A DNA stretch of 1,019 bases from Naegleria gruberi (taxonomy: Eukaryota). The DNA lies in NCBI GenBank assembly GCA_000004985.1, contig GG739613.1; one strand, written 5' to 3'. The translations under genes were made by a program, and so were the position numbers. Below are positions 1-1,019 of this stretch, in pieces (the stretch's first letter is position 1; each line of letters opens with the position of its first letter). The notes below the pieces were generated by a model. That model was not told the origin of the DNA, did no database searches, and saw only the letters and a list, made by a program, of their open reading frames with translations.

Positions 1-580
1 ATATCAGTTCCACAACTCCAGTGTGTGAATTAATTTTTTCCATAATTTGTTTTTCTCCTATTTCTTCATCGTTTAAGTTGTTTCTATTAAATTTTACCTT
101 CTCGGCCACTTCAATACCATTTAACCAAGCTTTGTACACCCCAAAGCCAAGTACTTCGTCTGTACGAGTTATTGTTGGAACTGTTTCAAAAGTTTTGATT
201 TTTCTTGGTATTAATTGAATATTAGGTAAAGTATGAGCAACCAGTTCAGATGTTGTGTAGATAATGTATTTATCTTCAGGGGAAAATTGAGGTAATTCTA
301 CAAATAATTCCAATAATTGTTCGTGAATAGCTTTTATGGGAGGCCTTTCCTTTGGATCTTGATTAATGCAACGAACACAAATTTCAAACAACTTTTTCGA
401 CATGTCAGAAGTTAAACAGGGGAAATTATGTTGAAGTGTTTCTTCTAACTGGGATACATTGGATTGCAAAGATTTAATAAAATCATGGCCACAAAGAAGT
501 TCAATCATTGTTACACCAAAGCTGTAAACATCAATCTTCGATATTTCAGAATACCCTAAATCATATTTAACTTCTGGGGG
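1..580 (-). CDS. Partial exon continuing the kinase gene. It covers the end of kinase domain 1 (subdomains VIII to XI), a linker, and the start of a second kinase-like N-lobe. The gene continues beyond the left edge of the window.
   Basis: The same frame is open for 193 codons with no stop (PPEVKYDLGYSEISKIDVYSFGVTMIELL...CINQDPKERPPIKAIHEQLLELF...TDEVLGFGVYKAWLNGIEVAEKVKFNRNNLNDEEIGEKQIMEKINSHTGVVELI). Subdomain IX is D-V-Y-S-F-G-V and subdomain XI is DPKERP at plus 341..358. Further on there is a Gly-loop-like LGFGVYKA (plus 128..151), a VAEK lysine motif (plus 98..109) and an alphaC/beta4-like EEIGEKQIMEKINSHTGVVELI. Confidence 0.85.
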
Positions 581-616
581 CTAAAATGGATAGTAAAATA
601 AATCAAAATAACTTAC
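581..616 (-). other. Putative 36-nt spliceosomal intron (GT-AG), in phase 0 and a multiple of 3 long, containing an in-frame TAG.
   Basis: On the minus strand it reads gtaagttattttgatttattttactatccattttag, with a canonical GTAAGT donor and a pyrimidine-rich tract ending TTTTAG. It is more AT-rich than the flanking exons. It carries an in-frame stop (TAG at plus 581..583). Removing it joins GTRLYL to PPEV and recreates the kinase subdomain VIII spacing GT-x-x-Y-x-(A/P)PE. Confidence 0.8.
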
Positions 617-1019
617 CAAATACAGTCGAGTACCAAAGTGTGATGAATTACTTATGTCACCTTCAACAATAAAATCAAAGTCACATAGTTTCACGTCATT
701 AAATAAATTCATACCAGCTATCTCTATCGTGTTAACTAAAATATTTGCTGGCTTAATATCACAATGACTAATATTCATTTTGTGCATAAATGTTAAAGTT
801 TCACTAATTTTCACCTGAGTATATAATATTTGCCACAATTTTCCAAAGTGATTTCTCCCAAAATCTGCTATTTGCGAATGGTTAAGAGAATGATCCATCA
901 ACTCCATGAATATGTGGTTTATGCCATCCTCAGATTCATAATGATGTAATATTTCAACTATACCAGGATGTTCACTGATTTTTTTGTAGAGCTCTAAATC
1001 TATGAAAGCAGTGAAAGCT
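617..1019 (-). CDS. Partial exon of a eukaryotic-type Ser/Thr protein kinase gene (kinase subdomains III to VIII); the 5' end of the gene lies beyond the right edge of the window.
   Basis: Minus-strand frame with codons starting at plus 1018 is open for 134 codons (AFTAFIDLELYKKISEHPGIVEILHHYESEDGINHIFMELMDHSLN...HFGTRLYL). It contains the catalytic loop HCDIKPANILV (plus 743..766, HRDLKPxN-type), the Mg-binding motif DFD (plus 674..682, a DFG variant) and the activation loop GTRLY. The upstream subdomain III/IV-like LELYKKISEHPGIVEIL is in the same frame, so the M at 907 in the ORF track is internal and not the start codon. Confidence 0.9.

What the first reader, a model, noticed from the sequence alone, without database searches (positions are those of the whole stretch)
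581..616. Short GT-AG intron splitting the kinase activation segment (GTRLYL | PPE)
The 36-nt element has a perfect GTAAGT 5' end and a TTTTAG 3' end. It contains an in-frame TAG and is the only interruption in an otherwise open kinase reading frame about 1 kb long. Splicing it out reconstitutes the conserved subdomain VIII motif G-T-x-x-Y-x-P-P-E exactly at the junction. Because its length is a multiple of 3 and it carries a stop codon, intron retention would give a protein truncated within the activation loop after the DFD motif. This could be a regulatory isoform. A spliceosomal intron also means the locus is eukaryotic, or from a nucleocytoplasmic large DNA virus, and not bacterial.
Basis: partly seen in the sequence, partly recalled or inferred. 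Interest (0 to 1): 0.55.

Follow-up and report, generated by a model that had tools for sequence, protein, structure and literature searches.

The report
Annotated 36-nt intron in Naegleria kinase
The 36-base element is an ordinary, very short spliceosomal intron in a protein kinase gene of the amoeba Naegleria gruberi, and the public gene model for this contig already splices it out at exactly the proposed junction.

Summary
On the minus strand one frame is open across the whole 1019-nt window, apart from a single TAG. That TAG is the last codon of a 36-nt element (window 581-616) that begins GTAAGT and ends TTTTAG. Removing it gives ...GTRLYL|PPE...

The window is an entire small Naegleria gruberi scaffold. 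The annotated protein EFC35190.1/XP_002667934.1 is 100% identical to the spliced translation across this junction. Of 26 frame-preserving GT/GC..AG choices, only this one uses a consensus donor and restores the motif. It scores 104 bits on Pfam Pkinase, against 78-90 bits for alternatives and 88 bits unspliced.

The element is 19% GC and 56% T, against 32% and 32% for the exons. All five N. gruberi paralogues have a contiguous G-T-x-x-Y-M-[PA]-P-E. Three paralogues recovered as genomic DNA are uninterrupted at this codon, so the intron is specific to this paralogue.

The in-frame stop follows automatically from phase 0, a 3n length and a TAG acceptor. Nothing supports a regulatory truncated isoform. 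No RNA data could be reached.

Verdict: a real but ordinary intron that is already annotated. Interest is low.

The parts
581..616 (-). 36-nt phase-0 spliceosomal intron (GTAAGTTATTTTGATTTATTTTACTATCCATTTTAG)
   Evidence: It holds the only stop in the 339-codon frame. The annotated product P0001 (EFC35190.1) is spliced exactly here. It is 19% GC and 56% T against 32% and 32% in the exons, and no exon 36-mer is as T-rich. It is exactly 36 nt extra relative to three paralogue loci.
611..616 (-). 5' splice site GTAAGT (exon side ...TATTTG|)
   Evidence: Only GTAAGT in the window on either strand. It matches the U2-type consensus donor (established knowledge). The candidate introns in paralogue locus L081 start with the same hexamer.
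581..586 (-). 3' splice site TTTTAG. Its TAG (581-583) is the in-frame stop seen if the intron is retained.
   Evidence: The downstream exon starts CCCCCAGAAG = P-P-E.
594..603 (-). Candidate branch-point adenosines at window 603, 599 and 594 (intron positions 14, 18 and 23; yTnAy matches TTGAT, TTTAT, TTTAC)
   Evidence: Pattern scan only. Which one, if any, is used is not known.
617..1018 (-). Upstream exon: kinase unit 1 from helix alpha-C to G-T-R-L-Y-L. It runs off the contig end.
   Evidence: Open frame. Pfam Pkinase match covers spliced residues 8-221, which is window 320-997. Catalytic loop HCDIKPANIL is at 737-766, DFD at 674-682 and GTRLYL at 617-634.
2..580 (-). Downstream exon: PPE (572-580), the rest of the C-lobe of kinase unit 1 (to about 320), then a linker and the start of a second kinase unit. 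It runs off the contig end.
   Evidence: Open frame. Pfam match. Gapless alignment to MKK6 and to paralogues.
2..286 (-). Pre-kinase region plus N-lobe (LGFG...VAEK...HTGVVELI) of a second kinase unit in the same reading frame
   Evidence: BLASTP to P0019 residues 114-181 (E 4e-9) and to P0018 residues 73-113 (E 5e-7). The homology continues past the VAEK where the annotated model stops.
98..778 (-). Extent of the deposited gene model EFC35190.1 / XP_002667934.1 (215 aa, 'predicted protein, partial'), with 581-616 spliced out

Best explanation
Window 581-616 (minus strand) is a genuine U2-type GT-AG spliceosomal intron. It is 36 nt long and in phase 0, and it lies in a Naegleria gruberi protein kinase gene. 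The gene belongs to a kinase family whose closest detected members are all N. gruberi proteins; some members also carry ankyrin repeats.

Inferred mechanism: U1 snRNA pairs with the perfect GTAAGT donor. One of the yTnAy adenosines 13-22 nt upstream of the acceptor serves as branch point within a T-rich tract. Cleavage after TTTTAG then joins ...TAT TTG to CCC CCA.... This produces a contiguous activation-segment / P+1 motif G-T-R-L-Y-L-P-P-E and an uninterrupted kinase C-lobe.

The intron itself has no demonstrated function. If it were retained, the ribosome would stop at the acceptor TAG after 11 foreign residues, and the product would lack everything from PPE onward. The most likely fate of such a transcript is surveillance or decay rather than a functional isoform.

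Shown: the sequence features, the fit to homologues and identity with the deposited spliced model. Inferred: actual splicing in vivo, the branch point used and the fate of unspliced RNA.
For: (1) One frame is open over 339 codons with a single stop, located at the 3' end of the element.
(2) The element has a consensus GTAAGT donor and a TTTTAG acceptor exactly on codon boundaries.
(3) Its composition differs from the exons: 19% GC and 56% T against 32% and 32%. No exon 36-mer is as T-rich, and 2.3% are as GC-poor.
(4) Pfam Pkinase scores 103-104 bits spliced, 88.0 bits unspliced and 77.8-89.6 bits for seven alternative in-frame GT..AG choices. Of 26 possible pairs, only this one restores G-T-x-x-Y-x-P-P-E.
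(5) The alignment to solved MKK6 (3fme) is gapless over the junction.
(6) Five N. gruberi paralogues (P0016, P0018/P0278, P0019, P0025/P0277, P0162; 34-39% identity) all have a contiguous GTxxYM[PA]PE. None has the 12-residue insertion.
(7) Three of those paralogues were recovered as genomic DNA (L081, L082, L084). Each encodes the motif without interruption, so the window carries exactly 36 extra nucleotides.
(8) The deposited N. gruberi model EFC35190.1/XP_002667934.1, on a 1019-nt contig, is 100% identical to the spliced translation.
(9) Window GC is 32% and N. gruberi is 33%. Naegleria annotators set the minimum intron length at 30 bp on the basis of predicted genes (PMC8296547).
(10) A 76-nt GTAAGT...TTAG AT-rich intron separates two homology-supported ankyrin exons in paralogue locus L081.
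Against: - No transcript evidence for this junction could be obtained. The gene is absent from every transcript or metagenome resource reachable here.
- The deposited model is an automated prediction. It is visibly imperfect at both ends, so its agreement is not independent proof.
- At 36 nt the intron is far below the N. gruberi mean intron length of 203 bp. I could not obtain the species' length distribution to show how common such short introns are.
- The intron is not conserved in any paralogue examined, so there is no positional conservation to lean on.
- The contig is a tiny unplaced scaffold, and the gene could be a non-expressed duplicate.
Confidence: 0.9

Rival explanations
1. Pseudogene or dead duplicate. 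On this view the 36 nt are an insertion that introduced a stop, and the gene predictor 'patched' it by calling a tiny intron.
For: The scaffold is tiny and unplaced. No transcript or second copy was found. The deposited model is automated and truncated at both ends. The Gly-rich loop of the second kinase unit is 4 residues shorter than in P0019. Ultra-short predicted introns are sometimes annotation artefacts (PMC5014332).
Against: A random insertion has no reason to begin GTAAGT, end TTTTAG, be T-rich and sit exactly on a codon boundary so that its removal leaves zero gap against homologues. The joint probability is about 2.7e-7. The rest of the frame has no stop in 327 codons (P about 1.5e-12), so there is no sign of decay. 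The artefactual introns described in PMC5014332 coincide with gaps in alignments to orthologues, whereas here removing the element leaves no gap.
Confidence: 0.05
2. The element is an intron, but the true boundaries differ or are used alternatively. An example is donor GTTATT at window 612 with acceptor CCCCCAG or CAGAAG at 574 or 571.
For: There are 25 other GT/GC..AG pairs that remove the stop and keep the frame. The nearest alternatives differ by only 3-6 nt in length.
Against: All alternatives tested score 15-27 bits lower on Pkinase and destroy the PPE or GT..Y motif. Their donors are non-consensus. The paralogues support the exact junction.
Confidence: 0.02
3. Regulated intron retention. 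The unspliced mRNA would be made deliberately, either to yield a truncated N-lobe-plus-catalytic-loop protein or to down-regulate the kinase through NMD.
For: The length is 3n and there is an in-frame stop, the pattern linked to NMD surveillance of short introns in ciliates (PMC5014332).
Against: The stop is simply the acceptor TAG read in phase 0, so no extra design is needed. In that literature the pattern is interpreted as error-proofing, not regulation. Intron retention is rare in N. gruberi RNA-seq. The donor is a perfect consensus, which argues for efficient splicing. A product ending before PPE lacks the substrate-binding C-lobe.
Confidence: 0.02
4. TAG is read as a sense codon, or is read through, and the 12 residues VSYFDLFYYPF(Q) are a real activation-loop insertion.
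For: The length is a multiple of three, so the frame is kept.
Against: The organism is N. gruberi, for which I know of no codon reassignment. There is no other TAA or TAG among 327 codons, and Gln is encoded by CAA/CAG 11 times. The insertion is absent from all paralogues. It lowers the Pfam score by 15 bits.
Confidence: 0.01

Closest known systems
Deposited gene model EFC35190.1 / XP_002667934.1 ('predicted protein, partial', Naegleria gruberi NEG-M, on a 1019-nt contig)
   Same: Same DNA. The model splices out exactly window 581-616 and reads ...HFGTRLYLPPEVKYD....
   Different: The model covers only window 98-778. It starts at an internal Met inside the catalytic loop and stops at VAEK. The open frame, and its homology to paralogues, continues to both contig ends.
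Canonical U2-type GT-AG spliceosomal introns of Naegleria
   Same: It has a GTAAGT donor, a T-rich body, a YAG acceptor and low GC. The same donor and a TAG acceptor are seen in the 76-nt intron between ankyrin exons of paralogue locus L081.
   Different: It is much shorter (36 nt) than the published N. gruberi mean of 203 bp (PMC8296547), although it is above the 30-bp minimum used for N. fowleri annotation.
Short 3n introns with in-frame stops (NMD 'spell-check' class described in Paramecium and other ciliates; Jaillon et al. 2008 as cited in PMC5014332)
   Same: It is short, its length is divisible by three, and it carries an in-frame stop, so retention would terminate translation.
   Different: It comes from a different lineage (Heterolobosea). 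This is a single case and not a genome-wide statistic. The stop here is merely the acceptor TAG. NMD targeting was not tested.
N. gruberi kinase paralogues XP_002674929.1, XP_002671040.1, XP_002674560.1, XP_002668129.1, XP_002680160.1
   Same: They share the family-specific pre-kinase region, the VAEK motif, an H-x-D catalytic loop, frequent DFD, and GTxxY[ML][PA]PE. Identity is 34-39%.
   Different: The three paralogues seen as genomic DNA have no intron at this codon. The window gene has two kinase units in one frame. The annotated paralogues show a single kinase unit, and two (P0016, P0162) plus the conceptual L081 gene carry N-terminal ankyrin repeats.

Membership tests
U2-type GT-AG spliceosomal intron | 5' splice site GT, consensus GTRAGT | tested here: met
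   GTAAGT at window 611-616 (minus)
U2-type GT-AG spliceosomal intron | 3' splice site YAG preceded by a pyrimidine-rich tract | tested here: met
   The element ends ...CCATTTTAG and is 56% T
U2-type GT-AG spliceosomal intron | Branch-point adenosine in a yUnAy context upstream of the acceptor | tested here: inconclusive
   There are three yTnAy matches 13, 18 and 22 nt from the 3' end. Which is used is unknown, and such matches are common in AT-rich sequence.
U2-type GT-AG spliceosomal intron | Removal restores an uninterrupted reading frame that is collinear with homologues | tested here: met
   The Pfam score rises by 15 bits. Alignments to MKK6 and five paralogues are gapless. The window carries exactly 36 nt extra compared with three paralogue loci.
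U2-type GT-AG spliceosomal intron | Host is a eukaryote with a spliceosome | tested here: met
   The window is 100% identical to an N. gruberi scaffold product. N. gruberi has about 0.7 introns per gene (1.7 exons per gene; PMC8296547).
U2-type GT-AG spliceosomal intron | Spliced junction observed in RNA | not testable with these tools
   No N. gruberi transcript data could be reached. Look-ups and scans found nothing.
U12-type (minor) intron | 5' end [AG]TATCCTT and a TCCTTAAC branch site | tested here: not met
   The 5' end is GTAAGTTA.
Self-splicing group I / group II intron | Structured ribozyme core of hundreds of nucleotides | tested here: not met
   The element is only 36 nt. There is no Rfam match in the window at E <= 1.
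Eukaryotic protein kinase domain (Pfam PF00069) | Score above the gathering threshold, with catalytic-loop Asp/Asn, metal-binding Asp and the APE-type motif | tested here: met
   103-104 bits against a cut-off of 31.7. HCDIKPANIL, DFD and PPE are present. The VAIK Lys of unit 1 lies outside the window.
3n short intron with in-frame stop (NMD-surveillance class) | Length divisible by 3 and at least one in-frame stop | tested here: met
   The element is 36 nt, and TAG is its twelfth codon.
3n short intron with in-frame stop (NMD-surveillance class) | Retained transcripts are degraded by NMD | not testable with these tools
   This needs RNA-seq with and without NMD inhibition in N. gruberi.

The most novel reading that the evidence does not exclude
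The intron is absent from the three paralogues seen as genomic DNA and sits at a near-minimal 36 nt with perfect signals. It could therefore be a relatively recent, lineage-specific intron gain in an expanding N. gruberi kinase family, rather than an ancestral intron lost elsewhere. It could also belong to a distinct class of ultra-short introns of about 36-38 nt in Naegleria; the candidate 38-nt elements in L081 point the same way.
Probability: 0.12. Interest if true: 0.3.

Novelty: already known. Interest (0 to 1): 0.08.

Why it matters
It matters little beyond annotation quality. The finding correctly identifies the locus as eukaryotic and confirms that an automated gene model placed this intron correctly. 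The useful by-products are these:
- The deposited model is truncated at both ends.
- The gene encodes at least two kinase units in tandem.
- The intron is specific to this paralogue, which could feed a study of intron gain and loss or of minimal intron length in Heterolobosea.

None of this changes current understanding of splicing or of kinases.

Tried and rejected
- Genomic or transcript context for the window gene was not on record. I tried P0001, two window ORF products, P0162 and P0025.
- A metagenome scan with the spliced protein gave 85 pattern hits, none of them a relative. A metagenome scan with an exon-only 31-mer next to the junction, which would have shown whether the intron was present or absent in any hit, found nothing.
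- The viral-origin (NCLDV) alternative was tested. IMG/VR holds only generic kinases: 24-39% identity over partial domains, best E 4e-12. That is weaker than the N. gruberi paralogues.
- An Rfam scan of the window found nothing.
- The first word-index protein search found only the self hit plus generic kinases. The family was reached only through the exhaustive search and a profile.
- I looked for the published N. gruberi intron length distribution. The genome paper is not held. The supplement table of PMC6142364 is truncated before the Naegleria row. Only the mean (203 bp) and the 30-bp minimum setting were obtained.
- Mapping the NCBI model P0278 onto L082 to harvest annotated introns failed. 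Only residues 81-474 map (one contiguous block), and the upstream exons differ between strain and model, so I abandoned it.
- Tandem-duplication (AGGT) and intronization origins were considered by eye, but the junction sequences give no convincing signature.
- Structure prediction was judged unnecessary and was not run.

Full report
**1. What is in the sequence**

The coding strand is the minus strand. Minus frame 1 (window 1018 down to 2) is open for 339 codons with a single stop. Base composition would predict about 27 stops, and the chance of 327 stop-free codons is about 1.5e-12.

The stop is the TAG at window 581-583. It forms the last three bases of the 36-nt element GTAAGTTATTTTGATTTATTTTACTATCCATTTTAG, which is the reverse complement of window 581-616. 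The flanking codons are ...H F G T R L Y L | P P E V K Y D...

GTAAGT occurs only once in the window on either strand. A single occurrence is not unusual by itself. The significance lies in the position. GTAAGT and TTTTAG bracket the only stop-containing segment exactly, on a codon boundary. The joint probability for fixed positions is about 2.7e-7.

**2. Identity of the locus**

A search of about 5.8 billion proteins with the spliced translation returned one near-identical hit, P0001. It is 215 aa, 100% identical, and named 'predicted protein, partial [Naegleria gruberi]'. It sits on a contig of exactly 1019 nt. Its accessions are EFC35190.1 / XP_002667934.1. The window is therefore a whole small scaffold of the N. 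gruberi NEG-M assembly.

The deposited protein reads ...SSHFGTRLYLPPEVKYDLGY.... The reference annotation therefore already removes exactly window 581-616. Window GC (32%) matches the 33% published for N. gruberi (PMC8296547).

**3. Is it really an intron, with these boundaries?**

(a) Pfam Pkinase scores 103.3 bits for the spliced protein and 88.0 bits for the unspliced one.

(b) I enumerated all GT/GC...AG pairs that remove the stop and keep the frame. There are 26. Only the 36-nt pair combines a consensus donor with restoration of G-T-x-x-Y-x-P-P-E. On Pfam it scores 104.4 bits, against 77.8-89.6 bits for seven alternatives.

(c) The alignment to solved MKK6 (3fme) runs without a gap through fgtrlylPPE / GckpYmaPE.

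(d) The element is 19% GC and 56% T, while the exons are 32% and 32%. No exon 36-mer on the coding strand is as T-rich, and only 2.3% are as GC-poor.

(e) There are yTnAy branch-point candidates 13, 18 and 22 nt from the acceptor. This is weak evidence in AT-rich DNA.

(f) There is no Rfam family in the window, and the 5' end is not U12-like.

**4. Comparative evidence**

The exhaustive HMMER search and a profile search show that the closest relatives, at 34-39% identity, are all N. gruberi proteins:
- P0016 = XP_002674929.1
- P0018/P0278 = XP_002671040.1
- P0019 = XP_002674560.1
- P0025 = XP_002668129.1
- P0162 = XP_002680160.1

All five have a contiguous G-T-x-x-Y-M-[PA]-P-E. The 12-residue read-through peptide VSYFDLFYYPF* aligns to a gap in every aligned member, and P0162 has the contiguous GGTYQYMAPE.

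Three paralogues could be recovered as genomic DNA from run ERR1078381: L081, L082/L083 and L084. They are 97-100% identical in protein to the N. gruberi models. In all three the kinase is one uninterrupted ORF of 357, 335 and 476 codons, and the motif is encoded contiguously. Lined up codon by codon, the window has exactly 36 extra nucleotides.

This supports the junction. It also shows that the intron is specific to this paralogue. At 35-39% identity, gain in this lineage cannot be told apart from loss in the others.

**5. Naegleria introns**

The published N. gruberi mean intron length is 203 bp, with 1.7 exons per gene. For N. fowleri a 30-bp minimum intron length was chosen 'based on an assessment of predicted genes' (PMC8296547). 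So 36 nt is at the short end but within the range annotators have seen.

In L081, two ankyrin exons are separated by a 76-nt element, GTAAGTATTG...TTAATTAG, with 14.5% GC. The ankyrin exons are 67% identical to the ankyrin repeat of P0016. A second, near-identical GTAAGTATTG... element of 38 nt would join the second ankyrin exon to the kinase ORF in frame. The 38-nt case rests on frame continuity alone. These elements show the same donor and TAG acceptor in the same gene family.

I could not obtain the full intron length distribution.

**6. Mechanism and consequences**

The most likely mechanism is ordinary U2-type splicing, which joins TTG (Leu) to CCC (Pro) in phase 0.

The in-frame stop needs no special explanation. 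Any phase-0 intron of 3n length that ends in TAG has TAG as its last codon.

Retention would give a product ending ...GTRLYLVSYFDLFYYPF. That product would lack PPE and the entire remainder of the C-lobe.

[quoted passage not shown] This is interpreted as error-proofing through NMD, not as a way of producing isoforms (PMC5014332). In the one N. gruberi RNA-seq survey found, 122 introns were retention-positive and 2,534 were negative (PMC6142364 supplement). The perfect consensus donor also argues for efficient splicing. The 'regulatory isoform' idea therefore has no support here.

**7. Rivals**

- Pseudogene with a patched model: unlikely, given the precise signals, the composition and an otherwise intact frame.
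- Other splice boundaries: they score 15-27 bits worse.
- TAG read as sense: rejected. There is no other TAA or TAG in 327 codons, Gln is encoded by CAA/CAG 11 times, and the insertion is absent from paralogues.
- Viral origin: IMG/VR kinases are only generic matches.

**8. What could not be done**

No RNA evidence for this junction was reachable. The deposited model is an automated prediction, so its agreement is supportive but not independent proof.

**9. Side observations**

- The deposited model covers only window 98-778. It begins at a Met inside the catalytic loop (MNISHCD) and ends at VAEK before a GTAAAA. The frame, however, runs off both contig ends.
- Homology to paralogues continues past VAEK: 43% identity over 47 aa to P0018, E 5e-7.
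- Window 2-286 encodes the family's pre-kinase region and the N-lobe of a second kinase unit in the same frame. The real gene is therefore a tandem-unit kinase that is larger than the scaffold.

**10. Verdict**

The feature is an ordinary intron that is already annotated. Novelty: already known. Interest: low.

Noticed in passing
window 98-778 (minus) versus the ORF at 2-1018: The deposited model EFC35190.1 is truncated at both ends. It starts at an internal Met inside the catalytic loop (MNISHCD, window 764-778) and stops at VAEK (98-109) before a GTAAAA. The frame stays open to both contig ends, and homology to paralogues continues past VAEK.
   Followed up: yes
window 2-286 (minus): After kinase unit 1 the same frame continues, with no stop, into the family-specific pre-kinase region and the N-lobe (LGFG...VAEK...HTGVVELI) of a second kinase unit. 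The gene is therefore a tandem-unit kinase that extends beyond the scaffold. The Gly-rich loop of unit 2 is 4 residues shorter than in P0019.
   Followed up: partly
window 737-766 and 674-682 (minus): The catalytic loop is HCD rather than HRD, making this a non-RD kinase. The metal-binding motif is DFD rather than DFG. Paralogues vary between DFD, DFS and DFG.
   Followed up: partly
L081 1514-1828: Two ankyrin-repeat exons are each followed by a near-identical AT-rich element that starts GTAAGTATTGAATATATT. One is 76 nt (1628-1703) and looks like two 38-nt units. The other is a candidate 38-nt intron (1791-1828) that would join the ankyrin exon in frame to the kinase ORF. This suggests tandem duplication of exon-plus-intron units and possibly a class of introns of about 38 nt.
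   Followed up: partly
L081 1976-3049, L082 531-1538, L084 110-1540: Three N. gruberi-like paralogues have no intron at the codon homologous to the window's intron. The intron is therefore paralogue-specific, and gain versus loss is unresolved.
   Followed up: yes
L081 1976-3049 versus P0025: The N. gruberi model XP_002668129.1 (241 aa) starts at an internal Met. The genomic ORF is 357 aa and includes the pre-kinase region and N-lobe, so this model also looks truncated at the N-terminus.
   Followed up: partly
L081-L084 (ENA ERZ929261 / run ERR1078381, PRJEB11402): A sample labelled 'metagenome' holds Naegleria gruberi-like genomic contigs, with 97-100% protein identity to NEG-M models and 32-34% GC. 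No copy of the window gene was found among its called proteins.
   Followed up: no
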